A stretch of DNA of 64,000 nucleotides from Dehalococcoidia bacterium (GTDB lineage: Bacteria; Chloroflexota; Dehalococcoidia; Lucifugimonadales; UBA3495), in NCBI GenBank assembly GCA_965242615.1, contig CBDESR010000005.1, positions 1,300,768-1,364,767 on the forward strand, given 5' to 3'. This document shows, piece by piece, positions 13,923-35,307 of the stretch; position 1 is the stretch's first letter; each line of letters begins with the position of its first letter. Position numbers and translations under genes: made by a program. A model generated the notes under the pieces. It worked only from the letters and a program-made list of their open reading frames with translations, was not told the DNA's origin and ran no database searches.

Positions 13923-14029
13923 GGCACGAATCGCATACTGGACTGGTTCACCGCAAAGTCGGCACGCAAAAACGCGGTGAGTTGTTGTCTTTGGTTATGG
14001 AGCCGCGGGGGCGGGGGGTGTAGGGGGGA

Positions 14030-19310: not shown

Positions 19311-20009
19311 ATGGCGCAGGATGCGGCGGCGCGGGACTTCGTTAAGTATTCCTTTTATAAGGTGGCGCCGGAGTGGCGGCTGCTGGCACCGGCGGTACGG
19401 GAGCGGAGCAAGGCGGAGTTCGCGGCGGTTCTGGAGGAGTTTGACGACCGGGTGGCTTGGAGCAGCTACAGTATGACGGCGACCCGGGGGGATGTGGACT
19501 TTCTGCTGTGGAAAATCAGTCCGACGCTGGAAGCCATTGACGCGCTGACTGGGCGGCTGAATCATACCGAGTTGGCCGGGTATCTGGATACGCCCCATTC
19601 CTATCTGGCGATGACGCGGCGGTCGCCCTATGTGGCGGAGCATCAGCACCCGGGGCAGGAGGGGACGGGGGCGACGATGCGGATGGTGGGCCGGAAGTAT
19701 CTGTTCGTTTATCCCTTTGTCAAGACGCACGAGTGGTATCAGCGCAGCCAAGAGGAGCGGCAGCGGCTGATGAATGAGCATTTCGAGATTGGGCATCGCT
19801 TCCCGGAGGTGAAAATCAGCACTTCCTATTCCTTTGGGTTGGATGACCAGGAGTTTGTGCTGGGGTTTGAGACGGATGAGCCGGGGGCGTTTCTGGATTT
19901 GGTGATGGCACTGCGGGAGTCGGCGGCGCGGCCCTACACGCTGCGGGACACGCCGATATTTACGGGTTTGCGGAAGTCGGTGCGGGAGTGTTTGGATGGG
20001 GTGGGGTAG
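19311..20009 (+). CDS. Chlorite dismutase-family protein (coproheme decarboxylase ChdC/HemQ-like)
   Basis: ORF 19251..20009, ATG 19311 after AAAGGA. YSFYKV...W, KYLFVYPFVKTHEWY, FGLDDQEFVLGFETD. Confidence 0.8.
   Translation: MAQDAAARDFVKYSFYKVAPEWRLLAPAVRERSKAEFAAVLEEFDDRVAWSSYSMTATRGDVDFLLWKISPTLEAIDALTGRLNHTELAGYLDTPHSYLAMTRRSPYVAEHQHPGQEGTGATMRMVGRKYLFVYPFVKTHEWYQRSQEERQRLMNEHFEIGHRFPEVKISTSYSFGLDDQEFVLGFETDEPGAFLDLVMALRESAARPYTLRDTPIFTGLRKSVRECLDGVG
19841..20009 (+). repeat. Direct repeat copy 1 (3' 169 bp of the ChdC-like gene)
   Basis: 161/169 identical to 22043..22211 in my manual alignment. Confidence 0.9.
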
Positions 20010-20024
20010 GCTAAAGGATACCGC

Positions 20025-21758
20025 CTACCCGGTGGAAGTAGCGCTTTCCGCTACCCGAGCAATGGCATCAAGAACTTCGGTGATTTCCGGGTCGATTTCC
20101 TCGCGGGGTACATACTGGGCCAGTTCGTAAAAGTCCTTCTTGTTCATCAAGTTGGGCAGGTCCAGTTTGGCGAAGTAAGCCCGGAACAAGGGCGTCAGAA
20201 AGTCGTCGCTTACTTTGGTGTCGGCATCCCAAGGGGAGCCTTTGCCGATGGTTTGCAAGGCGCTCTCCACATCCGCAATGGCTTCCCGCATTGCCCGCAG
20301 TCGACGGTCGGCTTCACTGGCGGCAAACAAAGGCTCGGCGGCGTCCCCTTCCGCGGCGGCCCGAGCATAGGCGGTCAGGGTAGACTGGGAACAAAGGTAG
20401 TTCTCAATTTCCCGGCGCCGCCAGGATATAATTTCCAAGCCGTCCCCACTCCTTGCCGGCGGCGTATCCAGCCGGTCGAATATGGCTACTCCTTTCAAGT
20501 CAGGGAGGGCTTCCCGCAAACCATAGTAATGGTTTTGGGCTTTGCTGGGTTGGTTCTCTACATAGGAAACGAAAGCCATCGACAAGGATTTCCGGGCCTT
20601 ATCGTGGCCCAGCTTGAGGGCAAAGGCTTGCAATATCGCCAAGTCGGTGGAACCTTCCAAATAGAGGTTCCAACCGGTCTGTTCGGCTTGGTAATACTGG
20701 TCGAAGCCGATTTCCCGCAGGGATTTCAGAACTTGGCGGCCCCGGTCATCAATGCGATGGGGTTGACCGACGAAAGCGATGACCATATCCCGACCGGCGG
20801 CTTCGTTGAGCAACACTTCGGAGTGACTGGCGGCAATTATCTGGCTGTTGCTGGCGGCGGCTACTTCGCTAATCTGGCGGTAGATTTGCCGCTGGCGCAA
20901 TATCTCGAGATGGGCGTCCGGTTCATCCAGCAAGAGAACCGCGCCGGGGTTGGCGTACATATAAGCCAGGATGAGCAAAGTCTGCTGCAAGCCGCGGCCG
21001 GTGGAGGACAAATCCAGAGCTACGCCGCGCTCTCGGTAGCTCATTACAATTTCGCCCCGTTCCGCTACATAGCGGGGAGCTTCAAGGTCAACGCGAAACA
21101 AATCCTGTATCTGGGCAACCAAATTGGCCCATTGACCGAGCTGCTCGTTGTAAATGCGGAAACATAGATTCCGCAGCACCTCGGCGGTGCGCCCTTCACC
21201 GACCCGGACATTTACCGCACCTACATCTAATCGGGTTTCAGTGGCCGCTAACCCGGACATCGGGGGTAGGAAGGCAATCTGCAACCCCTTTACTTCGGCT
21301 TCCGGAATTTCCATCCGCTCCGAACCCGCAGCGTCAGAGCGCAAAGGGCGGCAATAGAAAGACTCCTCGTTAGCGTAGTCGAACTCCAACCCGCAATTCC
21401 AGTGGAGGTCATTGTTCACCCCGGATACGGTGACATCGATACGCACGTTTTCCGTGTGCTGCTGACCCTGGTTATACTGGCTGTTCCGCACATGGAGTTC
21501 GTACCACAGCAAACGGGCGCTGGGTACGGGAATAGCAACCAAATCCCGGCGGTTGACGGTAATGCCGCGGCTGGAGCCGGCGGCTTTACCGGAGCGGCGT
21601 TCCAGCCACCGTTTCAGGCCAATGTCCCACAGGGCCAAAGCCTGCATCGCTGAAGTCTTGCCGGAGTTGTTAGGCCCGATAAATACTACCGGGTTTCCCA
21701 ACTCGATTTCGACTTCGCCAAGCCGTTTGAAGTTGCGTATGACGATGTTGGTAAGCAT
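20025..21758 (-). CDS. ABC/AAA-type ATPase fused to a Toprim/DUF4435-like domain (OLD-family, PARIS AriA-AriB-like fusion)
   Basis: Walker A GPNNSGKTS (aa 28-36), signature-like LSSTGRGLQQ, Walker B VLLLDEPDAHL, AASHS. C-terminal LYLEGSTDLAILQAFA and WRRREIENYL resemble Toprim/DUF4435. Confidence 0.7.
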   Translation of the reverse strand: MLTNIVIRNFKRLGEVEIELGNPVVFIGPNNSGKTSAMQALALWDIGLKRWLERRSGKAAGSSRGITVNRRDLVAIPVPSARLLWYELHVRNSQYNQGQQHTENVRIDVTVSGVNNDLHWNCGLEFDYANEESFYCRPLRSDAAGSERMEIPEAEVKGLQIAFLPPMSGLAATETRLDVGAVNVRVGEGRTAEVLRNLCFRIYNEQLGQWANLVAQIQDLFRVDLEAPRYVAERGEIVMSYRERGVALDLSSTGRGLQQTLLILAYMYANPGAVLLLDEPDAHLEILRQRQIYRQISEVAAASNSQIIAASHSEVLLNEAAGRDMVIAFVGQPHRIDDRGRQVLKSLREIGFDQYYQAEQTGWNLYLEGSTDLAILQAFALKLGHDKARKSLSMAFVSYVENQPSKAQNHYYGLREALPDLKGVAIFDRLDTPPARSGDGLEIISWRRREIENYLCSQSTLTAYARAAAEGDAAEPLFAASEADRRLRAMREAIADVESALQTIGKGSPWDADTKVSDDFLTPLFRAYFAKLDLPNLMNKKDFYELAQYVPREEIDPEITEVLDAIARVAESATSTG

Positions 21759-21817
21759 AGCGCACGACCATCATGTGGATTATTGGGCCAATTATAGCAC
21801 AGCACAGTATAAAAGCA

Positions 21818-21869
21818 GGGGCGCACCCCGCGGGATGCGCCCCCTAATCCATTGCCGGCTGATGGACTG
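21818..21869. repeat. 52-bp hairpin-containing repeat, copy 1
   Basis: GGGGCGCACCCCGCGGGATGCGCCCCCTAATCCATTGCCGGCTGATGGACTG; 50/52 identical to 35255..35306. Contains the 8-bp stem GGGGCGCA/TGCGCCCC. Confidence 0.9.
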
Positions 21870-22042
21870 CCCTCCCAGCAGGTCGACAGTGGTAACGACA
21901 ACGCCCCTTAATCACTGCGCCGGCTAAGACTGTCCTACCTCATCGCTATTGTTGCTCAGCCCACGGCAAGACAGCCCGAATGCCTGGGGCAGGAGGGGAC
22001 GAGTGCCGCCAGCCTTTTACCACCCTGCGTTGCTGGCTGGCG

Positions 22043-22211
22043 GGATGGACAGGAGTTTGTGCCGGGGTTTGAGACGGATGAGCCGGGGGCGTTTCTGGAT
22101 TTGGTGATGGCGCTGCGGGAGTTGGCGGCGCGGCCCTACACGCTGCGGGACACGCCGATATTTACGGGTTTGCGGAAGTCGGTGCGGGAGTGTTTGGAGG
22201 GGGTGGGGTGA
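22043..22211 (+). pseudogene. Orphan 3' fragment of a ChdC-like gene (direct repeat copy 2)
   Basis: Encodes ..QEFVPGFETDEPGAFLDLVMALRELAARPYTLRDTPIFTGLRKSVRECLEGVG* in frame with its own stop but no 5' part. Confidence 0.85.
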
Positions 22212-22237
22212 TGCAGAAAATTCTGCGTAGGCCAACG

Positions 22238-23236
22238 TCAGAACGGAAGGTCGTCAATATCCCTTTCTGCCCTTGCTACGGGGCGCGCAGGCCGCAACAT
22301 TCGCTCGAAATGTGCCTTCAGGTCTTCCATGACCTCTGGCACGTATTCAGGCAACACGCGTTGCGTCCTGGTTATCAGGTTGACCATATCTTGGAAAGAC
22401 CTCCGGGCCTTCGCAGAATCGCCATCTCTCGCACTTCGATAGGCATCCATACCAAGATCGTAAAGCCAAGGCGAACTCTCTTTAAGATCACTAAGCAGCA
22501 CGAGGAAACCGGGAGCACCCGAGAGCCTCATTGCAATCACCCTAGATTGCTCTGACGAAACGAAATATGACCTTCCTTGCGGTATGCGGAGGGCCATTAC
22601 TTCGTCCAGTCTTGCCGAAAGACGACGGAGTTCCCGACTTTCCAGCCTACTGCCTACAATCTCCACCAAGTTTGACAGTTCGCTACGCACTTCAGATATG
22701 GTGGATAGCATATCTGCTATGGTGCGTTGCTCCGGGTCCTCGCTCTGGCGCAATCGTTGGAGGTCTAGGGCAACTGAGATAGGGGTCTCCAAGTCGTTGG
22801 GGTTGGCTTGCAGAGCCTTGACTTGTTCAGCAATGGACGTCTTCGCTTTCGCCACGTTGTCAAGGTCGTGGAGATCGATAAATACCGTTCGATTTCCTGC
22901 AACGTCAAAAGGTATTTCCTCACCCACCCGTATAATTTGCACGAACGGCTTAACTATGGCGTGGCGGAGGGCCAGTTCATAAAATACATTGGGATTCCGG
23001 TCAGTCAGGTCGGCGATGACAAGGTCGTCATCTACGATATGTTGAATTACCTGGCTCGTAATAATGCCAGGCTTGTCGATCTCGTCAGCCCGAGTAGACA
23101 CGTACCCCAGAGGCTCCACCGCCGGGCGAATGATGTGCTGGAGGACTTGATCGGAGTGCTTGCGGATCTCCGAATCAGGCTCACCAATCGGCGCGATAAC
23201 GAAACAGGACTTGCTGCCAGACTCTACCATCATCAT
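22238..23236 (-). CDS. Hypothetical protein with N-terminal TIR-like / nucleoside 2-deoxyribosyltransferase-like Rossmannoid domain and helical C-terminal half
   Basis: CFVIAPIGEPDSEIR...IIRPA...RADEI..PGIIT..VI..I...DLVIADLTDRNPNVFYELALRHA..KP pattern. Confidence 0.45.
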   Translation of the reverse strand: MMMVESGSKSCFVIAPIGEPDSEIRKHSDQVLQHIIRPAVEPLGYVSTRADEIDKPGIITSQVIQHIVDDDLVIADLTDRNPNVFYELALRHAIVKPFVQIIRVGEEIPFDVAGNRTVFIDLHDLDNVAKAKTSIAEQVKALQANPNDLETPISVALDLQRLRQSEDPEQRTIADMLSTISEVRSELSNLVEIVGSRLESRELRRLSARLDEVMALRIPQGRSYFVSSEQSRVIAMRLSGAPGFLVLLSDLKESSPWLYDLGMDAYRSARDGDSAKARRSFQDMVNLITRTQRVLPEYVPEVMEDLKAHFERMLRPARPVARAERDIDDLPF

Positions 23237-23614
23237 CTCCCGTTCGTCTGCCCTTACCTCTGGTCTTACTGGGGTAAAGATGCCGTAAGAATTTATACGG
23301 CCGCCAGATTTTATTATATGTGATTATCGTATGTCAAGCACATTGTGTCCATTTTATAGCCCCGTGCAAAAATCCTCTAGATTTCTTTTCCGTCCACCAA
23401 TGAAGACGAATTCCGCCGTTTTTCGCAGGAATTGTGACGGGGTGGAAATTTTGTGAAGGAGGAGTATTCTGCCTGTTTGGACTTTTGTTGGGGCGATTTC
23501 TATGACCGAATGGCTTATCCACTTGAAGGAACCAAGTGGTATTCAGACCGCGAGATAGAGTACGTTGTGACATCGATAGGGATTTAACCGTGGCTAGTTG
23601 TCCCGCCCTTTTGC

Positions 23615-24475
23615 CTATGGGCTTAGGCCGAAGGTGTTGATCCAGATGAGGGCTGTGGTACGGGATCGTTCTGCCTCAGATTTGGTTATGTTCCACTCTT
23701 GAGAGATGGCGCTGTAAGCATCCTCATCAGTCTGGCTTGCGGTGGCAAGCACACTTTCGATGAATGGTGATGCTTGCAGGGATAAACGAACCCAAGCGTT
23801 GAACTGCTCCTTGGCCAAGCCGGAGGGGATAGCTAATATCCCGACTTCCCTGATGGCGATTTCCTGTTGCTCGAGCGTAGGAATTTCAAGCCCACGCTGC
23901 TGGTATGCCAACCATAGGTAATCCGGATTTCGGGTGAGCGGCTTCCAGCCATCAAAGGATTCTGCGGTGTCTTGCCGTTCCAGCGGCGTATCAGAATGGA
24001 GGGTCGGGATAATCTGGTTCCAAGCATCGAACTCGGCATCGGAGACTTCGTGGGCTTTCAGGAATAGGAGGTGTTCAAACCATTCCGCGTCAAAGTCGGC
24101 CGGAGGTGGGCAAAGGATTTCCACGTTGCCGTTGCCATAAATGCTCATGCCAGCGTTGGTGAGGTTGGCCGAGCCTACCAAGACATTACTGTCGAAGCGG
24201 TAGTACTTGGCGTGAAGCCGGTTGTGGAGCAAAAAAGTTCCGTTGAGGCCCAGCACGAGAGGCCGGCAAGCCAAGTCAGTTGTTCCGGCTTGGATGTCCT
24301 GCGGAGTCCAGCGCGACACGCAGGTTATGCTGGCATCCGGAGCGATGGAGTTCAGGACAAGCGTCAGCGGTTGCTCCTTGATGTAAGGAGCAACTATGAC
24401 TGCTTCTTGGGCGTTGGCACAGGAAGCAGTTAATATTTCCCAGCAAGTGGGGTTATTCGGGAGAGTCGACGACAC
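23615..24475 (-). CDS. Phospholipase D-family (HxK) nuclease
   Basis: LHAKYYRFDSNVLVGSANLTNAG = HxK(x4)D(x6)GSxN (H88 codon at 24214..24212). GTG start overlaps the upstream stop by 23 nt. Confidence 0.8.
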   Translation of the reverse strand: MSSTLPNNPTCWEILTASCANAQEAVIVAPYIKEQPLTLVLNSIAPDASITCVSRWTPQDIQAGTTDLACRPLVLGLNGTFLLHNRLHAKYYRFDSNVLVGSANLTNAGMSIYGNGNVEILCPPPADFDAEWFEHLLFLKAHEVSDAEFDAWNQIIPTLHSDTPLERQDTAESFDGWKPLTRNPDYLWLAYQQRGLEIPTLEQQEIAIREVGILAIPSGLAKEQFNAWVRLSLQASPFIESVLATASQTDEDAYSAISQEWNITKSEAERSRTTALIWINTFGLSP

Positions 24476-26300
24476 CCTCGTCCATCAGCCTGCTTAAGAT
24501 GCGGCCCCATCGCCGACAAGTGTCTTGGAAATCGACTCGGGTTCGCTGGTCCTGGATTTCGTCTTCCATCCGGGCCAAGGCCAAGATGATAAGCCGGAGG
24601 GCACTGGCCGGGCGGCTGTCTTGCTCGTTGTTTTCCGAGCCAGCCTGGTTTTCCAGGAATTCAAGGTAGTCGTATGCCGGGTGATTGATGTTGAGTTTGA
24701 CCACCAATACCCCGGATTGGGAGGTTTCAACTTCAAACACCGCAGAGCCGCTGAGGCTCGCGTTGATGAACTTGTAACGGTATCGGCGTTCTACCGTTAT
24801 CTGGGCCTGCCTCTGGGCTTCCTCTAACGGGAGTCCCGATTCAGTAAGGTCTTTGGTGAGCTCTTCTATTTTCACGGTGTCTTCCACCGTGTCGAAAAGG
24901 TCATCGGTAGGCGTCCGCTCGGACTCTGAGTTGCGGAGAGCTTCCTCAATTGCTTGAGTGCCCAGTTCTTCCGCTTTTTGAACGGTGGTTACCGAGGAGA
25001 TGTCAACCGGACTGGATGGGCGAGGGCGCTGACTGAATTTGCGCTGGATCTCGCGCATCATATAGCGGACGGTGTTCCGGATATGTTCCGCTATGCCGTA
25101 CAGGTCGGTTTCCAGCCCGTCGGTCTCGTCTCGGGCCTCGGTGTCGCCGCTGTCTGACAAGTTCAGGTCTCGAAGTGCCCTGACAAAATGGGACACCGTT
25201 TGTTTGTTGTGGTCTACTCCGAAAAGGTCGTCGCACCCCTCGTTGAATTTTACTTCGCAGCCCCACCACCGGTTCAAAGGATGTGATCCACCTCCTTGGT
25301 CGGTGGTTGCCATGGTGCGGTCCAGAGTTATCTCGCGGTTTTCCCGAATGATGGAAACTCCCATGTTTTTGTTGGCGTGTTGACCGTAGTCGCGCTGGCC
25401 AGGCAGGTCACGGTAATTGCCTAAGGGTTCGCTTTTGACTAAGGAATACGTGACGGTGACGGTCTCCTCTTTGCCGTCAACTATGACGGTAAAATCCTGT
25501 GTGCGGAGGAGGTCGAACATAGGTTGGGCACCCCAGACTCCTGGGGTGTTTGAGGTTGGCATCAGATAAAGGGGATCGTTAGGTCGGACCTGCGCCTCGG
25601 CTATGATGGTGTTGTCCGGTTCCCAGAAGGAAGCCATCCGAATTGTCAAGGATTGGCTGTTGATGTAATGCCGGTAGATCCGCCCGATTTCCTCCTCGAT
25701 ATGTCGGAATACTGTGTCGGATCGCATAGTGATGCGGTCGATGTCGGACCACACTACCAGGGTGCCGCTGGAACTGACATTTTGTTTGGCTAGTTGCAGC
25801 CATTCTTGCGGGACAGGTTGCCGATCGGGAAAGATTAGGGACTGTTGACCGGCTTCCACTTCTTCTATGGATAGATAGGCGTGGTGGGAGCTGTCGGGGC
25901 CGTCTTGCCAGGACCAGACGTCTAATTTCTTGCACTGGGATGCGGACGACGTAGGCAACCCCATGCCATACTTTCCGATGGTTCTGACGCTTTGGAGAGG
26001 CTTGTGGCCTCCGAAGGACAGGGCTAAGGATAACGTCTCGGGAGACATACCTTCACCATTGTCGAGGACGGCGATTTTTTGAATCCGCTGGACGGTCCTG
26101 GTGGGGCCGGGGACTTGGGCTTCTTTAACCAAGAGTTCTACTTGGGAAGCGTTGGCATCAATGGAGTTGTCGATGAGTTCGGCGATGGCGTTGGCAGCAT
26201 GGGGGTAACGGCTGTCCCGGAGGGCCCTTATGAGCATCGCGGGCTGGAAGATGGGATTTGAGTCCGAGGAGCCGCTTTGGATACTTACGTCGGTTGCCAT
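24453..26300 (-). CDS. GHKL-superfamily ATPase, MORC/paraMORC-like
   Basis: ORF 24453..26477; I prefer ATG 26300 (MATDVSIQ), a 16-nt overlap with the helicase stop. N-box ELIDNSIDA, G1 VLDNGEGM, G2 IGKYGMGLPTSS. Confidence 0.8.
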   Translation of the reverse strand: MATDVSIQSGSSDSNPIFQPAMLIRALRDSRYPHAANAIAELIDNSIDANASQVELLVKEAQVPGPTRTVQRIQKIAVLDNGEGMSPETLSLALSFGGHKPLQSVRTIGKYGMGLPTSSASQCKKLDVWSWQDGPDSSHHAYLSIEEVEAGQQSLIFPDRQPVPQEWLQLAKQNVSSSGTLVVWSDIDRITMRSDTVFRHIEEEIGRIYRHYINSQSLTIRMASFWEPDNTIIAEAQVRPNDPLYLMPTSNTPGVWGAQPMFDLLRTQDFTVIVDGKEETVTVTYSLVKSEPLGNYRDLPGQRDYGQHANKNMGVSIIRENREITLDRTMATTDQGGGSHPLNRWWGCEVKFNEGCDDLFGVDHNKQTVSHFVRALRDLNLSDSGDTEARDETDGLETDLYGIAEHIRNTVRYMMREIQRKFSQRPRPSSPVDISSVTTVQKAEELGTQAIEEALRNSESERTPTDDLFDTVEDTVKIEELTKDLTESGLPLEEAQRQAQITVERRYRYKFINASLSGSAVFEVETSQSGVLVVKLNINHPAYDYLEFLENQAGSENNEQDSRPASALRLIILALARMEDEIQDQRTRVDFQDTCRRWGRILSRLMDEGVVDSPE

Positions 26301-27535
26301 ATTTGCTCCCAGTTCTGGAAGGCTTCGGTTATCGAACCGAATTCCAGTAGTTTGGAGTCGAGCAGGGTATAAATCTGACACCTGCGGTTTCCGCCGGATC
26401 GTTCGCCCCGCATCGCCCGTCCTATCATCTGGGAGTATAGGACGAGAGATGTAGTTGGTCTGGCGACTATTACGCAACTGGTGCGCGGAGCATCAAAGCC
26501 TGCGGTTAATACGCCATAGTTTAGCAAAGCCATCGCCTCGGAGTCAATACTCCGGAAGCGGTCGATCGTTGATTGGCGTTGCTCCGATGGGGTACTACCA
26601 GTGATGCTTTCGGCGTGATGTCCCATCCCATTCAGGATGCCGGTGCAGTGATGGACGCTGGCCAGGGATGGGCAGAACACTATGACCCGGCGATGAGTGA
26701 CCAGTGCCCGGGAGGTTACCCGGATTATTTCCTGCTGCCAATTGGGGTCTTGGCCGATTTGGCGTAGGGTTGACCCGGAGTAATCTCGATCCTCGGACAC
26801 ATTCTGAAGCGGCAAGGTCGAGGTCAAGGATATAGGTGTGAACTGTGGGGCAGCCAAGTACCCATTCTTAATGAGATAGGTTACCGGATCAGGGTGTCCT
26901 TTTGGGTCTATAGTTACCTTTTGGAAGTTGAAAAACTCCGCTAGTTGCTGGTCCTGCTCCCCGGGTGTTGCAGAGCGTCCCGGCGTTGCCGTGAGTCCCA
27001 GCAAAGGCGGCTCATAGGTGAGGAGTTGCTTTGTGACGAACTGATAGGTGTTGGCAATGGACTGATGGGCTTCGTCAAATATCACCGCTGCAGCGCGGTC
27101 TGCCAAGTTTATGAGCAATTGCTGGTTGCTCCCGGATACGGAGTAGAGCTTGGCCAATCCAGTAACCAAGAAGCCGGGTTCGTAAGCAATGTCTCTGGCG
27201 TCTCCCCAATAGCGTTGGATGTGGGCCGGGCGGTTGCCCAAATACGACCAAGCAGTCGCGAGATTTTCTGCCGCTTGTTCGCACAGCTCCTCGCTGGCCG
27301 CCAGCCAGATCAGGATTTTTCCTTCGTTGGCCTTCTGGTTCAGAATGTGGCAAGCCACGTGGCAGGCCAACCGGGTCTTGCCGGCGCCGGTAGGCAGATG
27401 GGCAATGGCTCGGGGGCCTGTCCCGAAACGGGGCGGTGTAGTAGGGCACAGGAAATCAAGCAGGTCGTGCATGACCTGCCTCTGATAGGGGTACAGCTGG
27501 TAATTGGGTTGGACTACGTTCGGATTAGATACCAC
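26285..27535 (-). CDS. SF2 DEAD/DEAH-box helicase
   Basis: LPTGAGKT (Walker A), VIFDEAHQS (motif II), GLTATPGR (III), QMIGRAMRG (VI). Confidence 0.85.
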   Translation of the reverse strand: MVSNPNVVQPNYQLYPYQRQVMHDLLDFLCPTTPPRFGTGPRAIAHLPTGAGKTRLACHVACHILNQKANEGKILIWLAASEELCEQAAENLATAWSYLGNRPAHIQRYWGDARDIAYEPGFLVTGLAKLYSVSGSNQQLLINLADRAAAVIFDEAHQSIANTYQFVTKQLLTYEPPLLGLTATPGRSATPGEQDQQLAEFFNFQKVTIDPKGHPDPVTYLIKNGYLAAPQFTPISLTSTLPLQNVSEDRDYSGSTLRQIGQDPNWQQEIIRVTSRALVTHRRVIVFCPSLASVHHCTGILNGMGHHAESITGSTPSEQRQSTIDRFRSIDSEAMALLNYGVLTAGFDAPRTSCVIVARPTTSLVLYSQMIGRAMRGERSGGNRRCQIYTLLDSKLLEFGSITEAFQNWEQIWQPT

Positions 27536-29156
27536 AGACGCCCTCGCATTCGTCGAGCATAATGCTATCGTAATCCGGAGTGTCAGTCAAGTCAATCTCC
27601 GACAAGGGCCGCCGTTCCCGATGCAGGTAGGCATAGCCTTTCCTGCTGATGCCGTTCCTGACGGTTTGGTCGTTGCGGAGGGCGTGGTCAACCAGAATGG
27701 CATCTTGGAAAGACTCAGGGTCATGGTCTTTAAGCCACTTCCATTCAGCGTTGGTGTGGTAAGGGCAGCCGATGCAGGAACTGCGCGGCAAATAGCGGTC
27801 GGGGTAACGTTCCTTGAACCAGATCAACGCTTGGACCCGGCTTATCCCCAGATCTACGAGGGGAAACCGGTTTTCAATCCATTCCTCCTGGCTTTTTTTG
27901 GCCCGTATGGCCTCGTCGGAACTGATACCCATCCAGACTTCGGCATAGACAGGTTTTTGTGCCCGGCGTCCGGGTTGCAGCCCCATGCGTTGACGCAGCA
28001 GGTCGTGAATGGGCTTGATTTTGTACTTGCTGGTGCATTGGCGGCGGGCCAGCGCCGAGCTGCCGTCCGGGTTGGTGATGAAAGCCGGGATGGTCAGGTA
28101 GGGTTTGCCTTCGGGACTGACGCCTTTCAAGATGTTCTCGCGGAGGCTGCCGTTATTGACCCGTACTATCTCAAAGGATACTTGGGATTGCAGCCACTCC
28201 AAGTGTTCGTAGATATGAGGAGGTTCCCATCCGGTGTCGGCGAATATAGCTAGGTCAGGCTTTTCGAGTCCAGAATAGCCTTGCTCGGCCATCAAAGCAA
28301 GAACGGTGGACTGGACGCCGGCACCCAGACTAAGGGACCTGATAGTGGGCGTACGGTTCAGCAACCTTTTGCGGTCGCTGACGAAGTCGGGGTTTGCCAT
28401 AATGTCAGCCAAGTGGGCTTGCAGCAGGCCCCTGATTTCGTCGCGGGGCAAGGCTTCCAGTATTTGCGTGCCGGCGTCGAGGTTGATGCGGCGGAACAGT
28501 TCCATGCCTCCGGCTTCGGCTTTCATGCCTTTGCCTTCATTGAGGAGAGCCCGGACGAATTCTGCTAACAGAATCGGCGAGCGTAGAACAGCGGAGCGGA
28601 GCAGTATGTGGTAATGGACAGCGAACTTGGCAAAGTGTTCCAGAGCCTGTTCTGCGTTGAAGGCTCCGGCCGACGCTTCAGCCGCTTTGACGGCGGTGTG
28701 GGCAATCCACCAGGTCCGGCCGGCTGTGTTGCTGTTCCAAAGGGCGGTTCCCTGGTTCTCTATGAACCAGTGGGCTTTGATGTAGTCCGGCAGATTTGTG
28801 GCCCTGGTGCGACGCCAGCGCTTCAAGCCATAGGCGTGGAGCTTGAAATGGGCCAGCCAAGTCCACATCCTGGTATCGGTCGCGGTTGCTGGAGTGATGC
28901 CCGGCAGGGAATTATAGAAACCCAGCGCTTGCCGATCGGCCAAATTGGCGTTGCCGGAACTGACCGGTTCCAAGATGAGAGGATGGATGGTGTTGATTCC
29001 CGTTTCCTCTGTCGTGCGGGTTACGCCCTCGGCGGCGAGGATTTCGGCAAAGTCGGTTTCGGGATTAAGGTAGGTTTCCGGACTCTGCTCGGCTACCAAC
29101 CGGAGGCAGTCGTAAGCCTCTTGGGTTAGTTTGAGGATGGGGAAACCTGCTGACAT
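27525..29156 (-). CDS. PAPS-reductase-like PP-loop enzyme (DndC/IbrA-like) with about 265-aa uncharacterised N-terminal domain
   Basis: aa 274-284 SLSLGAGVQST (variant of the SGGxDS PP-loop), RRQCTSKYKIKP, C-terminal CIGCPYH. The N-domain is Trp-rich helical (RMWTWLAHFKLH..., RTWWIAHTAV). Confidence 0.7.
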   Translation of the reverse strand: MSAGFPILKLTQEAYDCLRLVAEQSPETYLNPETDFAEILAAEGVTRTTEETGINTIHPLILEPVSSGNANLADRQALGFYNSLPGITPATATDTRMWTWLAHFKLHAYGLKRWRRTRATNLPDYIKAHWFIENQGTALWNSNTAGRTWWIAHTAVKAAEASAGAFNAEQALEHFAKFAVHYHILLRSAVLRSPILLAEFVRALLNEGKGMKAEAGGMELFRRINLDAGTQILEALPRDEIRGLLQAHLADIMANPDFVSDRKRLLNRTPTIRSLSLGAGVQSTVLALMAEQGYSGLEKPDLAIFADTGWEPPHIYEHLEWLQSQVSFEIVRVNNGSLRENILKGVSPEGKPYLTIPAFITNPDGSSALARRQCTSKYKIKPIHDLLRQRMGLQPGRRAQKPVYAEVWMGISSDEAIRAKKSQEEWIENRFPLVDLGISRVQALIWFKERYPDRYLPRSSCIGCPYHTNAEWKWLKDHDPESFQDAILVDHALRNDQTVRNGISRKGYAYLHRERRPLSEIDLTDTPDYDSIMLDECEGVCGI

Positions 29157-29159
29157 TTT

Positions 29160-30008
29160 CTACTCCGTTTCCGCAACGTTGGTCACGCTGGTCAAGAGCC
29201 GGCCTATAGGCGCCTCCAGTATGATTTGGGCATAGTGGGGCGCATTGCGGCGGATGCTTTCGGCATCGTGGTCTATTTTATACCGTTCCAGCGCGGATTG
29301 TATAGCTTGGGACCAGAGGGATTCCGGGTAATCTTGGTAGCAGTGGAGCGCTTGGGTGACTACGTTCAAATAGAACGCGGAGATTAGGGCTGCCTGCCCC
29401 ATTTTGCTGTGGGTCTGGCTTCTTACCCGTTCCAGTGTGATTTTATCTACGGGATTGACGTAGATTTTTATTCGGTCGGAATTGAAGTCCAACTCGTATA
29501 AACCGGGCTTGGTAGCGGGATTTGGCACCAAGTCAATCACCGAGCTGGCATTGGTTTCCTTGATGATGACTCGCTTTGAGGCTGCGACGGCCAAGATGGC
29601 TCCCCGGGGCAGGTCAAAACCTTCAGGCTTCAGTTCCCGTATTTCCGGGTTATGTTCAGGGGCTTGGAAATCGGATACCGGCTTGACGGTGATGATATAT
29701 GGGGTGACGACTATTTCGTCGGCGTAGTTTTCCGCGGGCAGCGAGAGGTAATGCTGCCGGTTCTGTCCCGAGAGGTGCAGCTCTCGGCTATAAGTGCGGA
29801 CGCACGTGGTTTGTACCGCGTAATCTGCTCCTCCTTGACCAATCAAGGATTGCAGGGTTTCGCTGTTCAGCAAATACTCCAGCGTAAGGTTGATTACCTC
29901 CCCGTTGCTGAGTACGCTGTTGCGCACTTGGCAACTGAAGCCCGATTGGGGGTAATCGTCGGTATCATCCGACAGGAGCGGGTAGGGCAGGAGGCGTTGA
30001 CGCCACAT
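29160..30008 (-). CDS. Hypothetical protein (282 aa), operon member
   Basis: Clean ORF, 3-nt and 9-nt gaps to its neighbours; no motif I recognise. Confidence 0.5.
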   Translation of the reverse strand: MWRQRLLPYPLLSDDTDDYPQSGFSCQVRNSVLSNGEVINLTLEYLLNSETLQSLIGQGGADYAVQTTCVRTYSRELHLSGQNRQHYLSLPAENYADEIVVTPYIITVKPVSDFQAPEHNPEIRELKPEGFDLPRGAILAVAASKRVIIKETNASSVIDLVPNPATKPGLYELDFNSDRIKIYVNPVDKITLERVRSQTHSKMGQAALISAFYLNVVTQALHCYQDYPESLWSQAIQSALERYKIDHDAESIRRNAPHYAQIILEAPIGRLLTSVTNVAETE

Positions 30009-30017
30009 ATACGTTAC

Positions 30018-31787
30018 CTATTCCGGCTGTAGAGTGAAAGCCATCCGGCTGATGTCTTGCCCGGCAGTAATTTTAAGCCGGACGCGTTCGTTAGGTTTGG
30101 TGGTCAGGGTAATGGCGCCCGCCTCCACTTGTATTGGCTCTTCGGGGCGGTCGAGGCTCTCGGCGCTGATGATGAGTAGAGGGGTATCATTCTTTCTTTC
30201 ACCCCCGGTCGGAAACAGCTTTACCGTGGTACTGCCGGCCTGCATAGCAGTGAAACCGACGACCGCTTCGTTGACGCCGGTACAGACGACCCGTTGATCC
30301 TTCAGCGCCGGCGGATGGTGGTCGTCTAATAAGCTTGGAGCCAGGGGTCGCAACATAGATGAAACTCCTGACCTGATTTCCACCGTAGTCAGGTTGCGTT
30401 CCTTAGTTTCTTCTGCATACTGCTCCGGCAAAGCGTATGCCAGTTCAGTCAAGTTGCTGACGCCCGGATACTCAGAGATGTCGAATATCTCCTCGTAGGT
30501 CACGTTCAAAGTGTTTCTGGCGTGGGTCAAAGTCGCTTCGGCAAATTGACGCTCACTGGCCTCCGCGATTTTCTCCGAAGTGATGGCGTCGTGTCCCGGG
30601 TTTTCCATACTGCGGAGCCAAGCATCGCCCTCATTTGTTGCCGGGATGACAACGGCGGCGTAGTCGGGCCAATAGCTATGGTTTGGCGGAGAGAGCGGGT
30701 TGTGCTTGCGCTCCCGGCTGTCGGTAATGAGCATACCGTTGCGGTTCAGGCAAGCCGTTCGCCGGGGACCTTCTCCTTTGAGGATATATGCTTTCAGGAC
30801 TCCCAGTGGCGAGTCCGTTGATACGCTCGTCGCGGTTCGATCGCGGATTGCCCGATAGTAAGCGTAGGAGGAGCTGTTGCTGGCTAAGGCAAAGTGCTGG
30901 TCGAGGGTCTCGTGGTTAATGAGTACCGACGGTTGTTCCGGCTGCCCCTGGATGGCAACCGTCAAATCCTGATTGTGGATCGCAAAGAAATAGTTTTCGA
31001 TGACGGCCAAGACAGCGGTTGCGACCCAATTGGAGCACCGCGGGTTGAAACCGAGAATAAACACGCCGGTGCCGGTCTCTGCCAGTCGGAAGCAGGAAGG
31101 TATTTCCGTTCCGCGCAGTGGTCGGCCGGATGCCGTACGGTAGAATCCGATGTGCTGGAGCGGCGTAGGCTTCGCTTCAGGCAAGGCGTGAGTTATCAGG
31201 CGGCTCTTTCCTTGCGTCTTTTCTTCGCGTCCTTGTCGCCGGGCCAAGTACCGCGTCGAGTATATGACGGAATACAGGTCACTGACATTGAAAACAGCGT
31301 TCTTGCCCATCCCGTAAGAACCGCCGGCGGCGTTTTTGTCCTTGCGGACTATCCCTTCTTGGGTTACCAGAGCATTCCATTTCTCGCCGACCAGCCCGGT
31401 TGTGCCGGTATCGACAACGCTGAGACAAGGGATGGTCGGGTTATCGATGCAGTTTAGGGCTTTGGCATAGGCAGCTACGGCATCGGTCTCGTTCCGTGCT
31501 TTGGTAATTTCCAAGCAAGCTGCGATGTGGGCGGAGAGCGCCGGGCCGCCCATGGCATCAGTAGGCACTTCGACCTCAGTAAAGGTCAAGTGAACTGGTT
31601 GAATCAGCCCATCAACTTTGGCATCCAGCGCGTTCTGGAGCAGCTCGCGCACCAAGTGGACCATCGGGGAGGCTTGAAAATGCGCGGCGGCGGCGTTTTC
31701 GAAGCCGTATTCGACGCCATCGTTGTTGGGCGGGAACTGCCAAGTGGCCTGCTGTTTGGGAGATGCAGTCAAAATCATTTGCTCCAA
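30018..31787 (-). CDS. GHKL-superfamily ATPase (HSP90/sacsin-like N-terminal module) with large C-terminal region
   Basis: RELLQNALDA (N-box), VVDTGTTGL (G1), GGSYGMGKNA (G2). The start may be ATG 31778. Confidence 0.65.
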   Translation of the reverse strand: MEQMILTASPKQQATWQFPPNNDGVEYGFENAAAAHFQASPMVHLVRELLQNALDAKVDGLIQPVHLTFTEVEVPTDAMGGPALSAHIAACLEITKARNETDAVAAYAKALNCIDNPTIPCLSVVDTGTTGLVGEKWNALVTQEGIVRKDKNAAGGSYGMGKNAVFNVSDLYSVIYSTRYLARRQGREEKTQGKSRLITHALPEAKPTPLQHIGFYRTASGRPLRGTEIPSCFRLAETGTGVFILGFNPRCSNWVATAVLAVIENYFFAIHNQDLTVAIQGQPEQPSVLINHETLDQHFALASNSSSYAYYRAIRDRTATSVSTDSPLGVLKAYILKGEGPRRTACLNRNGMLITDSRERKHNPLSPPNHSYWPDYAAVVIPATNEGDAWLRSMENPGHDAITSEKIAEASERQFAEATLTHARNTLNVTYEEIFDISEYPGVSNLTELAYALPEQYAEETKERNLTTVEIRSGVSSMLRPLAPSLLDDHHPPALKDQRVVCTGVNEAVVGFTAMQAGSTTVKLFPTGGERKNDTPLLIISAESLDRPEEPIQVEAGAITLTTKPNERVRLKITAGQDISRMAFTLQPE

Positions 31788-31804
31788 CAGTATATGGATA
31801 AGCC

Positions 31805-31833
31805 AGTTTAAGTAATCCAGCGCGGAATTGCAA
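31805..31833 (-). promoter_or_regulatory. Putative promoter of the six-gene operon
   Basis: Minus strand: TTGCAA (31833..31828), 17-nt spacer, TAAACT (31810..31805). Confidence 0.3.
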
Positions 31834-32113
31834 GGATAACAAGAAGATACCCGTTTCAGGTCCTATTCACTGTTATTGACTGGTGGGATAAAAGGGTAGC
31901 GCTTGAGCAAAGGGAGGGTCTCGATTGGCGTAGCAGTGCGGCTGTAAGCTGCCTAGTCCGCCTAGCGGATGATGGGTTATACCGGCAAGGGTAAGCGGTT
32001 CTGGAACGAGGCGGCGGGATAATTGGCTGGAGGCGGGGCTGAGCCGGCCGGCTGGCTTGTTGCAGCACGGTGGAGGGCTTGGGGGTGATTGGCCGGCTGG
32101 CAGTTGCTCCTGA

Positions 32114-32398
32114 TTAGAGCTCGATATTTTCGAGGAAGTCCAGCCACGGCGGCGGCCAAGCGGCGGGCTCGCCAGTTTCCGTGGTGGTTGGAGCCGGGGT
32201 GCCGCCCGAGGATTGGGCGGCTAGTTGACGGCCAATATCGTTCCAAGCTGCGGCAATGTCCAGATAGTACGGGATGGCGGCTTGGTCGGCCGGTTGTTCC
32301 GTCGCTATGTTCAGGGCGAAGGCCAGAGCGTTGACGGTGCCGATGGCGGCCAGGGCGGCCGGCGCCGGCAGGGCGATGAACTGGTTGGCCCGGGTCAT
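32114..32398 (-). CDS. Hypothetical protein (94 aa)
   Basis: ATGA overlap with the upstream 150-aa ORF; no recognisable motif. Confidence 0.4.
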   Translation of the reverse strand: MTRANQFIALPAPAALAAIGTVNALAFALNIATEQPADQAAIPYYLDIAAAWNDIGRQLAAQSSGGTPAPTTTETGEPAAWPPPWLDFLENIEL

Positions 32399-32847
32399 GG
32401 GCCGGGACTCCAGCAGGCGTCCAATGCGTTCAAGTCCTGCTGGTCCGGGCGGGTGGTCGCGACTAGGGCGTTCAGGAAGGTCTGCGGGTTCTGTACGAAG
32501 TACTCCAGTCCCAGGTCGGTGACGGCCTGGCGTTGGCCGGCGGCTTGGGCCTGTTGGCTCAGTTCCGGGACCTCGGCGTAGGCGACGCTGCGCGCGATGC
32601 GAAGCATATAGCTGGCTTTGGCCTCCCGGCCGGCAGCGCTGCCCTGTTCTATGACGATGCGCAACAGGTTGGCAGCGTGTTCCTCCTGTTGCTGGTCCAA
32701 GTCGGCGATGTAGCGTTGCAGCAGCAGGTCGATTTCGGCCCGGGGCTGGTCGGACAGAGCTAAACCGGTAATGGCTTGGGCAATGCTGCTTGCCCGGGCA
32801 CTTACGGCGTTGGGCTGGTAGCGGCTGGGGATGTTTTCGTATGGCAT
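32395..32847 (-). CDS. Hypothetical protein (150 aa)
   Basis: Coupled to 32114..32398; helical-looking; no recognisable motif. Confidence 0.4.
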   Translation of the reverse strand: MPYENIPSRYQPNAVSARASSIAQAITGLALSDQPRAEIDLLLQRYIADLDQQQEEHAANLLRIVIEQGSAAGREAKASYMLRIARSVAYAEVPELSQQAQAAGQRQAVTDLGLEYFVQNPQTFLNALVATTRPDQQDLNALDACWSPGP

Positions 32848-33192
32848 GGCTTTGGTTCGAGGATAGGCCGTTGGCTGCCGGAGATTATAGTCCGCTGGCT
32901 GGGTGCGGTCAAGGAATGGGATTATGGAGAGGGTAGTCCGTGGTTTGAGCCTTTAATTTGGTGGTTTCTTTACCGGTTGCTCAGGTGGGAGCTGATTATT
33001 CCGGCTGAGAGCGCCATTCCAAAAGTTCTGCTGGCTGCTTCGGTGAAAGTCAGTCTTTCTGGCCGGAGAGCGCCGGGCATCGTTTTGGTCAACCAACAAA
33101 AACATTTCAGGAATGCATTTATGAGTGTTGGCTTTTCCCGGTTCTACCTTGCCAGTCATTAATCTTGGGAAGCTCTGTGGGCCGGGACCGCT

Positions 33193-35306: not shown

Positions 35307-35307
35307 A

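What the first reader, a model, noticed from the sequence alone, without database searches (positions are those of the whole stretch)
19841..22211. 169-bp duplication of the ChdC/HemQ-like 3' end brackets a 2-kb cassette
19841..20009 (the end of the intact gene, including its stop) and 22043..22211 (an orphan fragment with its own stop) are 161/169 identical by manual alignment. The differences include the stop codon (TAG versus TGA) and three amino-acid changes. This is the footprint expected when an element integrates into the 3' end of a protein gene and supplies a replacement 3' end, or when a duplication or recombination occurs at an island hotspot. No integrase lies between the repeats.
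Basis: seen in the sequence. Interest (0 to 1): 0.6.

Follow-up and report, generated by a model that had tools for sequence, protein, structure and literature searches.

The report
Recombination scar in a defence-gene hotspot
The duplicated end of the heme-synthesis gene chdC is real, but it is most likely a scar left where two alternative sets of anti-phage genes became stacked between two core genes of a Dehalococcoidia bacterium, not the footprint of a self-integrating element.

Summary
The repeat is confirmed: 19841-20009 and 22043-22211 are 161/169 identical. An independent metagenome contig (L081, 96.7% identical) has the same layout, so it is not an assembly artefact.

In relatives, chdC and aconitase (acn) are convergent neighbours, often 13-330 bp apart. 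Otherwise they are separated by varying cargo: ParA-like+HEPN, DUF4365 pair, IS elements, or an OLD-like ATPase, "AAA577".

A second repeat was missed. The acn terminator plus the acn stop codon (21818-21869) recurs at 35255-35306. The window therefore holds two cargo units head to tail, and each unit keeps both hotspot edges:
- Unit 1: chdC-3'/AAA577/acn-terminator.
- Unit 2: chdC-3'/13-kb island+IS/acn-terminator.
- A 162-bp joint (x) links the two units.

AAA577 lies directly next to acn in eleven related loci and diverges in step with it, so it is a resident gene, not a recent mobile cassette. The x|chdC-3' junction also occurs in four relatives, abutting AAA577 and eroded by different deletions, so the orphan predates this arrangement. 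Another genome has an independent 417-bp chdC orphan with a different breakpoint.

No site-specific recombinase was found. The best reading is homology-driven or illegitimate recombination at a defence hotspot. This is an ordinary kind of event, nicely documented here.

The parts
19311..20009 (+). Intact chdC/hemQ (coproheme decarboxylase, 232 aa). The likely start is the ATG at 19311, preceded by AAGGA.
   Evidence: Pfam Chlor_dismutase E=2e-53. NCBIfam HemQ_actino is the best NCBIfam match but scores below its curated cutoff (129 vs 235 bits). 92-94% aa identity to the chdC of close Dehalococcoidia relatives.
19841..20009 (+). Repeat copy 1 (C3'a): the last 169 bp of the intact chdC, ending in a TAG stop. 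It forms the left edge of cargo unit 1.
   Evidence: It keeps the residues conserved in all aligned relatives.
20025..21758 (-). Cargo 1: the 577-aa ATPase 'AAA577'. It has an ABC/OLD-like ATPase head and a C-terminal domain matching no family. Its stop codon lies 15 bp from the chdC stop.
   Evidence: Pfam AAA_15/AAA_21. PADLOC AriA/NsnB/AriAB/GajA-type hits. The closest PDB sequence is OLD nuclease 6p74. The AlphaFold model (pLDDT 69) gives Foldseek top hits to OLD nuclease, Septu PtuA and Gabija GajA, E about 1e-8 to 1e-7, but with TM-scores of only 0.2-0.3. It lies directly downstream of acn in L082, L083, L084-L087, L090, L091, L093 and L094.
21759..21817 (-). AAA577 upstream (promoter) region. 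It is conserved together with the gene in relatives.
   Evidence: Alignments. The sequence AATTATAGCACAG...TATAAAAGCAG is shared by L081, L082, L090, L091 and L093.
21818..21880 (-). Orphan copy of the acn 3' flank (f): the terminator hairpin, the spacer, and remains of the acn stop codon plus about 7 nt of acn. It forms the right edge of cargo unit 1.
   Evidence: 52 bp at 96% to 35255-35306. A terminator-like hairpin lies at 21844-21817 on the minus strand. L081 keeps ...CTGCCTACCCG, which is the acn stop codon plus 4 nt, as found next to the real acn in L082.
21881..22042 (.). Joint 'x' between the two units. Positions 21915-22028 are homologous to the sequence between a DUF7700 gene and a shrunken chdC remnant in L090/L091/L093/L094. 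Positions 21983-22006 are a 24-nt patch copied from chdC nt 339-362.
   Evidence: BLAST 82-85%. Alignments. The patch is 21/24 identical, and 0 of 500 shuffles reach its score.
22043..22211 (+). Repeat copy 2 (C3'b): the orphan chdC 3' end with a TGA stop. It is a pseudogene remnant and forms the left edge of cargo unit 2.
   Evidence: It carries private substitutions at conserved codons (L>P, S>L). The orthologous orphan in L081 has four other private changes. The same remnant in L090/91/93/94 is cut down to 47-73 bp by different deletions.
22212..35254 (-). Cargo 2: a 13-kb low-GC island. It holds orf332 (22238-23236, weak TIR-effector hit), a PLD-like gene (23615-24475), a GHKL ATPase resembling MzaB (24453-26477), a helicase (26285-27535), a DUF6339/SspD-like gene (27525-29156), PDC-M33B (29160-30008), PDC-M33A (30018-31787) and an IS1182/IS5-like transposase (33562-34959, + strand).
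   Evidence: Pfam, PADLOC and NCBIfam. GC is 0.55, against 0.61-0.64 for chdC and acn. It is absent from L082, L088 and all other related loci.
35255..37578 (-). The acn 3' flank (f', 35255-35307) and the aconitase gene acn (35308-37578). This is the right-hand core gene of the hotspot.
   Evidence: Pfam Aconitase E=5e-134. 97-99% aa identity to the acn of L088 and L090. Homology with relatives resumes at 35252-35255.

Best explanation
The 169-bp repeat is a recombination scar inside a defence-gene hotspot bounded by two convergent core genes, chdC and acn.

In this Dehalococcoidia clade, cargo sits between the chdC stop codon and the acn terminator. The window holds two such cargo units stacked head to tail. 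Each unit still carries its own copy of both hotspot edges:
- Unit 1: [last 169 bp of chdC | AAA577 | acn terminator and stop codon].
- Unit 2: [last 169 bp of chdC | 13-kb island + IS | acn terminator].
- A 162-bp patchwork sequence, x, joins the units.

The first chdC end is fused to the rest of the gene and keeps it functional. The second is a decaying pseudogene remnant.

The stacking was most likely made by recombination between two different alleles of the hotspot, probably from two strains. It would have used one homologous exchange in an edge (chdC end or acn/terminator) and one illegitimate joint (x). Two routes fit:
(a) single-crossover insertion of a circularised or tandem 2.2-kb copy of [x - chdC end - AAA577 - terminator], taken from a relative of the L090 type, into a chdC-island-acn allele; or
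(b) homology-facilitated illegitimate insertion of [x - chdC end - island - terminator] next to acn in a chdC-AAA577-acn allele.
No site-specific recombinase is needed in either route.

Shown: the two repeats, the hotspot, residence of AAA577 next to acn, the pre-existing x|chdC junction, and decay of the orphan.
Inferred: the direction and mechanism of the joining event.

The two repeat pairs should allow RecA-dependent loss of either unit without damaging chdC or acn.
For: (1) Hotspot. 25 of 80 chdC loci have acn within 10 kb. In 24 of these acn is convergent. 17 have a gap of 13-327 bp and 8 have a gap of 0.7-7.6 kb. Cargo types include ParA-like+HEPN (L003, L088/89), 375-aa+DUF4365 (L004, L067), IS elements (L024, L059) and AAA577 only (L082). 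Homology between the window and L088 stops 5 nt after the chdC stop and resumes 3 nt before the acn terminator.

(2) Second repeat. The acn flank at 21818-21869 matches 35255-35306 at 96%, and it contains the acn terminator.

(3) AAA577 is a resident gene. It lies directly after acn in L082, L083, L084-87, L090, L091, L093 and L094. Its nucleotide identity tracks that of acn: 94.8/95.7, 89.5/93.8, 80.3/87.4 and 76.0/85.8.

(4) The x|chdC-3' junction is present in L090/91/93/94. There it directly abuts AAA577, with two different internal deletions. The window order is a cyclic permutation of that arrangement.

(5) x carries a 24-nt chdC-derived patch, which is typical of an untidy illegitimate joint.

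(6) There is an independent second case. In one MAG, a 417-bp chdC orphan (codon 95 to stop) sits next to the acn cargo. It is 402/417 identical to the intact copy on another contig and also ends at the stop codon. The breakpoint differs but the right edge is the same.

(7) No tyrosine or serine recombinase domain was found in about 40 window ORFs. Only two DDE transposases were found.

(8) The orphans accumulate private changes, and both window copies share TT at 19967-8, which suggests gene conversion.
Against: The parent alleles required by each sub-route were not found: chdC-island-acn for route (a), and x-chdC end-island-acn for route (b). The one metagenome scan gave nothing useful.

It is not known whether chdC is intact in L082, because the contig ends 57 bp into the gene.

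In L083 a 165-bp chdC remnant begins within about 3 nt of the window orphan's left boundary but has a different left flank. This could mean a preferred, possibly site-specific, breakpoint rather than common descent.

Recombinases acting in trans from outside the 64-kb window cannot be excluded.

The excess of private changes in the orphans rests on few sites and is not statistically strong.
Confidence: 0.6

Rival explanations
1. In-place tandem duplication followed by cargo replacement. A chdC-AAA577-acn ancestor duplicated the segment from chdC codon ~178 to the end of acn, with x as filler at the duplication joint. The second AAA577 copy was later replaced by the 13-kb island. The L090-type genomes then lost the first unit. 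This is purely intragenomic and needs no import of a second allele for the duplication itself.
For: It explains the cyclic permutation and the shared x|chdC junction without unobserved parent alleles for the duplication step. Both repeat pairs have similar identity of about 96%. A chdC-AAA577-acn allele is known, at least as far as the chdC end (L082).
Against: A 162-bp filler is unusual for a tandem duplication. In L090/91/93/94, x starts about 20 nt after the stop codon of the DUF7700 gene, as if it were that gene's native flank. The intermediate with two AAA577 copies was not observed. Two further events are needed: a cargo swap, and loss of unit 1 in the relatives.
Confidence: 0.2
2. Site-specific integration, as the first reader proposed (e14/icd-like, or a cis-mobilisable element). 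A 2.2-kb element carrying AAA577 and a mimic of the chdC 3' end inserted at a defined site near chdC codon 178. It used a recombinase supplied in trans, displaced the original 3' end, and x is the element's other arm.
For: The geometry is exactly that of e14 in icd, with the icdC pseudogene at the far end (PMC13626634). Tandem islands without integrases occur at ssrA in Dehalococcoides (PMC3146451). The L083 remnant starts within about 3 nt of the same chdC position but has a different left flank.
Against: There is no recombinase between the repeats or among about 40 window ORFs, and none next to chdC in the related loci whose genes were examined. The supposed element contains the acn terminator and stop codon and is syntenic with acn in eleven loci, diverging in step with it. 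The x|chdC 'attR' junction occurs in four genomes without any attL partner nearby. The independent orphan in L067 breaks at codon 95, not 178. x contains a chdC-derived patch.
Confidence: 0.12
3. Assembly or binning artefact. The contig falsely joins two strain variants of the chdC-acn locus through their shared chdC end.
For: Two alleles of one locus placed in tandem is what a mis-join between strain variants could look like. The copies differ by about 4%, similar to the divergence between strains.
Against: An independent assembly from another sample (L081, 3.3% diverged) has the same order, including the f-x-orphan joint and the first island gene. The x|chdC junction is also present in four further contigs, including a 3.37-Mb chromosome. 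A mis-join would not create the unique 162-bp x.
Confidence: 0.03

Closest known systems
Core-gene-flanked defence hotspots (e.g. cDHS1/cDHS2 of Pseudomonas aeruginosa; PMC10250203)
   Same: Both have two conserved core genes that bracket a site with variable, mostly defence-type, low-GC cargo. Many occupants have no mobility genes. Exchange through the conserved flanks by homologous recombination has been proposed.
   Different: This case is in uncultured Dehalococcoidia and lies between chdC and acn. The cargo units still carry duplicated pieces of both flanks. Johnson et al. expected flank-mediated exchange to leave no scar.
e14 / phage 21 integration into icd, with the icdC pseudogene (Hill et al. 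1989, as described in PMC13626634)
   Same: In both, the functional gene runs into the inserted DNA, which provides a slightly different 3' end. The displaced original end survives as a C-terminal pseudogene on the far side. Deletion between the copies gives a chimeric but functional gene.
   Different: e14 is a prophage with its own integrase and an SOS-induced, site-specific excision. Here there is no recombinase, the 'insert' is resident chromosomal DNA that carries the neighbouring gene's terminator, and the breakpoint is not conserved (codon 178 versus codon 95 in L067).
Tandem ssrA genomic islands of Dehalococcoides, and cis-mobilisable elements / accretion (PMC3146451)
   Same: Same bacterial class. 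Several islands lie in tandem, each bounded by a direct repeat of a gene's 3' end. Some islands lack integration modules.
   Different: The ssrA repeats are 20 bp and are made by a serine recombinase (DsiB) encoded next to attL. Here the repeats are 169 bp and 52 bp, correspond to both flanks of the hotspot, and no such integration module was found.
Homology-facilitated illegitimate recombination and Campbell-type single-crossover insertion (known from natural transformation studies; own knowledge, with papers listed)
   Same: One homologous anchor plus one illegitimate joint brings in foreign DNA. A single crossover of a circular molecule duplicates the homologous segment on both sides of the insert.
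   Different: This is inferred from sequence only. Competence or transduction in this organism is unknown, and the parent alleles were not recovered.

Membership tests
Integrase-mediated element inserting in the 3' end of a protein gene (e14/icd type) | A direct repeat of the target gene's 3' end at both boundaries | tested here: met
   161/169 identity, spacing 2202 bp.
Integrase-mediated element inserting in the 3' end of a protein gene (e14/icd type) | A site-specific recombinase encoded in or beside the element | tested here: not met
   The only gene between the repeats is an AAA_15/AAA_21 ATPase. No recombinase domain was found in about 40 window ORFs.
Integrase-mediated element inserting in the 3' end of a protein gene (e14/icd type) | An empty site in relatives: an uninterrupted gene followed by the DNA found to the right of the orphan | tested here: not met
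   No chdC-island allele was found. The allele that was found (L082) keeps the 'element' and lacks the orphan and the island.
Integrase-mediated element inserting in the 3' end of a protein gene (e14/icd type) | The insert is foreign or mobile: patchy distribution, not syntenic with host genes | tested here: not met
   AAA577 lies next to acn in eleven loci and diverges in step with acn. The insert contains the acn terminator and stop codon.
Integrase-mediated element inserting in the 3' end of a protein gene (e14/icd type) | Precise excision or a circular form with a defined core | not testable with these tools
   This needs reads or PCR from the samples.
Core-gene-flanked defence hotspot | The same two core genes flank the site across relatives | tested here: met
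   acn lies within 10 kb of chdC in 25 of 80 loci, convergent in 24 of them. In 17 the gap is only 13-327 bp. L088/L089 add two more.
Core-gene-flanked defence hotspot | Different cargo at the same site in close relatives | tested here: met
   At least five cargo types were seen, with sharp homology edges at the chdC stop and the acn terminator.
Core-gene-flanked defence hotspot | The cargo is defence-related | tested here: inconclusive
   There are PADLOC/Pfam hits to defence-type families: AriA/GajA-like, TIR-like, PLD, MzaB-like, PDC-M33A/B/C, HEPN and DUF4365. No complete known system was identified and no function was tested.
Cis-mobilisable element / tandem accretion | att repeats recognised by the recombinase of a related autonomous element at the same site | tested here: not met
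   No recombinase-bearing element adjoins chdC or acn in the related loci whose genes were examined. Recombinases elsewhere in these genomes could not be checked.
OLD-family / ABC-ATPase defence proteins (for the gene between the repeats) | An N-terminal ABC-type ATPase head | tested here: met
   Pfam AAA_15, AAA_21 and SMC_N. PDB 6p74 OLD nuclease E=1.8e-7. Foldseek top hits are OLD, PtuA and GajA, with low TM-scores.
OLD-family / ABC-ATPase defence proteins (for the gene between the repeats) | A C-terminal Toprim nuclease domain with catalytic acidic residues | tested here: inconclusive
   There is no Pfam hit for residues 351-577. The PADLOC AriAB model covers 272-460. The alignments to OLD and GajA span most of the protein but have low TM-scores (0.19-0.24). 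Invariant E368, G369 and D372 in 36 homologues look Toprim-like, but this was judged by eye only.

The most novel reading that the evidence does not exclude
The duplicated hotspot edges (the chdC end and the acn terminator) may act as portable homology arms. Defence cargo that carries them could then move and stack between strains as small circles or linear fragments by general recombination alone. This would give mobile-element-poor Dehalococcoidia an integrase-free way to build and reshuffle defence islands. The independent 417-bp chdC orphan in another genome, and the near-coincident breakpoint in L083, would be further products of the same process.
Probability: 0.15. Interest if true: 0.5.

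Novelty: new member of a known kind. Interest (0 to 1): 0.3.

Why it matters
This locus is a clear natural example of how a defence island can grow at a site bounded by core genes without any integrase. The leftover pieces of both flanking genes record the order of events.

It also shows that a duplicated 3' gene end is not enough on its own to call an integrative element. Here the apparent insert is resident DNA, and the real novelty in this strain lies on the other side of the orphan.

For annotation of Dehalococcoidia MAGs, it marks chdC-acn as a place to look for new defence genes. It also flags the short chdC-like ORFs there as pseudogene remnants.

Tried and rejected
- Exact look-ups of the window's ChdC and AAA577 found nothing on record. 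P0273 was also not on record.
- The single metagenome scan, using orf332, returned one 70%-identical locus (L092) with no chdC, so no chdC-island allele was recovered.
- I looked for inverted repeats that would mark the ends of the IS at 33562-34959, and for repeats around the island. Nothing convincing was found.
- A Pfam scan of the AAA577 C-terminal 227 residues gave no hit even at E<=10. NCBIfam gave no specific family.
- Rfam at gathering threshold found only tRNA-Pro. Tandem-repeat search found nothing in 19-36 kb.
- I guessed that the 233-aa ORF at the end of L084/L086 was ChdC, which would have implied an inversion between those genomes and the window. tblastn found no ChdC there, so I dropped that reconstruction.
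- I first read the arrangement as a random illegitimate joint made in this lineage. That was rejected once the x|chdC junction turned up in L090/91/93/94.
- I compared which acn-flank copy resembles which relative, to decide between donor and recipient. The result was not discriminating.
- A relative-rate comparison of orphan and intact copies points toward decay of the orphan but rests on too few sites.
Full report
**1. The observation**

Positions 19841-20009 and 22043-22211 form a direct repeat with a spacing of 2202 bp. It covers 167-169 nt at 96% identity. Self-BLAST gives E=5e-74. A 25-mer from the repeat occurs exactly twice in the window, against none in shuffles.

Copy 1 is the end of an intact 232-aa chdC/hemQ gene at 19311-20009 (Pfam Chlor_dismutase E=2e-53; NCBIfam's best match is HemQ but below its curated cutoff) and ends in TAG. 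Copy 2 is an orphan that ends in TGA.

I count four amino-acid changes (D>G, L>P, S>L, D>E) and one synonymous change. The L>P and S>L changes fall on codons that are identical in all eight aligned relatives.

The only gene between the copies is a 577-aa AAA_15/AAA_21 ATPase at 20025-21758 on the minus strand, called "AAA577" here.

A 3.85-kb contig from another sample, L081, is 96.7% identical over 19227-22661. It has the same order: intact gene, ATPase, orphan, and then the first island gene. The C-terminal 120 aa of orf332 are 100% identical. An assembly artefact is therefore very unlikely.

**2. The organism and the locus**

ChdC relatives place the window in Dehalococcoidia (Chloroflexota) MAGs. 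The best match is 92% aa.

In 25 of 80 related loci, aconitase (acn) lies within 10 kb downstream of chdC, and in 24 of these it is convergent with chdC. In 17 of them the gap is only 13-327 bp. In 8 the gap is 0.7-7.6 kb.

The larger gaps hold varied cargo:
- a ParA-like ATPase plus a HEPN protein (L003, and the close relatives L088/L089);
- a 375-aa protein plus DUF4365 (L004, L067);
- IS elements (L024, L059).

In the window, chdC ends at 20009 and acn (35308-37578, minus strand) is 15.3 kb away. The interval has lower GC (0.55-0.57, against 0.61-0.64). It encodes:
- AAA577;
- a weakly TIR-like protein;
- a PLD-like protein;
- a GHKL ATPase resembling MzaB;
- a helicase;
- a DUF6339/SspD-like protein;
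- PDC-M33B and PDC-M33A homologues;
- an IS1182/IS5-like transposase.

Homology with L088 stops 5 nt after the chdC stop and resumes 3 nt before the acn terminator. chdC-acn is therefore a hotspot bounded by core genes, with sharp edges.

**3. A second repeat changes the picture**

Positions 21818-21869 match 35255-35306 at 96% over 52 bp. This sequence is the hairpin terminator just downstream of acn plus a spacer. In L081 the internal copy still continues through the acn stop codon and four more bases, reading ...CTGCCTACCCG, exactly as beside the real acn in L082.

The supposed cassette between the chdC repeats therefore carries a piece of the other flank of the hotspot. The window reads:

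chdC-5' | chdC end (a) | AAA577 | promoter | acn terminator (f) | 162-bp joint x | chdC end (b) | 13-kb island + IS | acn terminator (f') | acn.

These are two cargo units in tandem, each with a left edge and a right edge.

**4. AAA577 is a resident gene, not a newcomer**

In L082, L083, L084-L087, L090, L091, L093 and L094, AAA577 lies directly downstream of acn with the same promoter-terminator spacer.

Its nucleotide identity to the window falls in step with that of acn. The AAA577/acn values are 94.8/95.7 (L090), 89.5/93.8 (L082), 80.3/87.4 (L083) and 76.0/85.8 (L084).

L082 shows chdC end - AAA577 - acn with neither the orphan nor the island.

As to its nature, AAA577 has an ABC-type ATPase head and PADLOC hits to AriA, NsnB, AriAB and GajA models. 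Its closest solved sequence is an OLD nuclease (6p74). An AlphaFold model (pLDDT 69; the C-terminal 220 residues mostly 83-95) finds OLD nuclease, Septu PtuA and Gabija GajA first, although with low TM-scores of 0.2-0.3. No family matches its C-terminal domain.

The family is very large and unusually conserved. There are more than 8000 hits, and identity is about 70% even to a protein labelled Rhodospirillaceae.

**5. The orphan's left junction is older than this arrangement**

Positions 21915-22028 of x are 82-85% identical to sequence in L090, L091, L093 and L094. In those loci it lies between the stop of a DUF7700 gene and a shrunken chdC remnant, and that remnant directly abuts the AAA577 stop.

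The remnant is 73 bp long in L091 and about 47-50 bp in L090/L093/L094. The alignments show two different internal deletions of an ancestral "x + 169-bp chdC end". The L091 deletion lies between two GCTG(G)CGGGA motifs.

Those genomes have the order x - chdC end - AAA577 - promoter - f - acn. The window has chdC end - AAA577 - promoter - f - x - chdC end. That is a cyclic permutation of the same 2.2-kb unit plus one extra chdC end.

x also contains a 24-nt patch (21983-22006) that matches chdC nt 339-362 at 21/24, with 0 of 500 shuffles reaching its score. So the joint is untidy, or it is the remains of a once longer chdC fragment.

In the genome that holds L090, the functional chdC (L001) is about 2 Mb away. 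It is next to Bax1-I, MiaB-like and NadA genes and is only 88% identical in nucleotides to the window's chdC. By contrast, acn and AAA577 of that genome are 95-96% identical to the window's.

**6. An independent second case**

In MAG CBDBCU01, a 417-bp chdC fragment (codon 95 to the stop) sits between rplA and the acn-side cargo (L067). An intact chdC lies on another contig (L002). The two are 402/417 identical, and the homology again ends exactly at the stop codon. The right edge is the same as in the window and the breakpoint is different. That is what hotspot-edge recombination predicts. A fixed attachment site would not predict it.

**7. Decay and conversion**

The window orphan has two private changes. 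The L081 orphan has four others. The orphans share only the two bases at the left edge and the stop-codon region. The L090-type remnants are being deleted.

Both window copies share TT at 19967-8. L081's copies and most relatives have GC or GT there, which suggests gene conversion between the copies. The counts are small.

**8. Mechanism**

No tyrosine or serine recombinase domain was found in about 40 ORFs of the window. Only two DDE transposases were found, at 33562-34959 and 38188-39399. None adjoins chdC or acn in the related loci whose genes were examined.

The structure needs one illegitimate joint (f|x) and one homologous exchange in an edge. Three routes fit:
- (a) A circular or tandem copy of the L090-type unit inserted by a single crossover in the 169-bp chdC homology of a chdC-island-acn allele.
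- (b) A fragment x - chdC end - island - f' - acn from another strain inserted next to acn in a chdC-AAA577-acn allele, anchored in acn with an illegitimate left joint.
- (c) An in-place tandem duplication followed by cargo replacement.

I could not separate these routes. The parent alleles for (a) and (b) were not found. Flank-sequence affinities were not informative.

I rank import from another allele, (a) or (b), first at 0.6, and route (c) at 0.2.

The site-specific reading gets 0.12. It keeps some weight because the 165-bp remnant in L083 starts within about 3 nt of the window orphan's boundary while having a different left flank, namely the stop of an SNF2/PLD gene 13 nt away. About 10 nt to the left of both boundaries look alike (GGCGGCGGG versus GGCTGGCGGG). 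Common descent of the junction is therefore possible, but it is not shown.

**9. Consequence**

This point is inference. The 169-bp pair and the 52-bp pair are direct repeats. Recombination within the first pair would remove AAA577 and leave a chimeric but complete chdC. This is what happens to icd when e14 is lost (PMC13626634). Recombination within the second pair would remove the island and restore the L082-type allele. The internal acn terminator now stands between the island's minus-strand genes and the AAA577 promoter.

**10. Comparison with what is known**

The locus behaves like the core defence hotspots described in Pseudomonas, where exchange through conserved flanks was proposed and was expected to leave no scars (PMC10250203). 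Here the scars are visible.

The geometry copies e14/icd-icdC, but it fails the membership test on the recombinase, the empty site and the foreignness of the insert.

It also recalls the tandem ssrA islands of Dehalococcoides and their integrase-less members (PMC3146451). Those have 20-bp repeats made by a serine recombinase.

**11. Verdict**

The feature is a new example of a known kind of genome dynamics. It is interesting mainly as a well-resolved case and as a caution for annotation.

Noticed in passing
window 21818-21869 and 35255-35306: A second direct repeat of 52 bp at 96% identity. It is the acn terminator and flank, and one copy lies inside the supposed cassette. It proved to be the key to the structure.
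   Followed up: yes
L067:10001-10417 and L002:10283-10699: In another Dehalococcoidia MAG, a 417-bp chdC 3' fragment sits between rplA and the acn-side cargo. It is 96.4% identical to the intact chdC on a different contig. This is an independent orphan with a different breakpoint.
   Followed up: partly
L001 (chdC) and L090 (acn-AAA577), same 3.37-Mb chromosome OZ251531.1: The chdC at the acn locus is reduced to about 47 bp. The functional chdC lies about 2 Mb away and is only 88% identical in nucleotides to the window's gene, whereas acn and AAA577 are 95-96% identical. This suggests replacement of the native gene by a diverged copy.
   Followed up: partly
window 20025-21758 (AAA577) and its homologues P0001-P0120: This OLD/PtuA/GajA-like ATPase family is very large (over 8000 hits). 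It stays about 70% identical even to a protein labelled Rhodospirillaceae. Its confidently modelled C-terminal domain matches no Pfam family. Its function is unknown.
   Followed up: partly
window 19227: Homology with L081 and L088 begins abruptly at 19227, just upstream of a promoter-like site at 19237-19265. The window's upstream genes (CoA-transferase, M24 peptidase, methylases, RecQ) are not upstream of chdC in those relatives. This marks another rearrangement breakpoint.
   Followed up: partly
L081:3680-3720 and several places in L090, L091, L067, L084, L086, L001: A short element of about 35 nt occurs repeatedly in intergenic DNA of these genomes. It looks REP- or MITE-like.
   Followed up: no
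window 12222-17031: On the other side of chdC lie two large Eco57I-like/N6 methyltransferase genes (one with a MADS mad2-like hit) and a 310-aa gene of unknown function, next to RecQ. This may be a second defence cluster. L054 has homologues of two of them upstream of its chdC.
   Followed up: no
window 27525-31787: Homologues of all three genes of the candidate system PDC-M33 (A, B, C) lie in a row. The C homologue is fused to an SspD-like part.
   Followed up: no
window 38188-39399: A transposase of the IS6/IS240 type lies just beyond acn. The genes that follow acn in relatives (ferredoxin, AsnC regulator) are missing from the window.
   Followed up: no
window 53815-55264 and 49900-51480: A long array of diverged 102-nt tandem repeats (about 12 copies) lies inside a 564-aa ORF. 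Separately, a stretch of C-rich 6-66-nt repeats may encode a low-complexity protein.
   Followed up: no
window 3953-4692 and 6100-6833: Two short-chain dehydrogenase genes about 2 kb apart are 80% identical in nucleotides, so they are a local paralogue pair.
   Followed up: no
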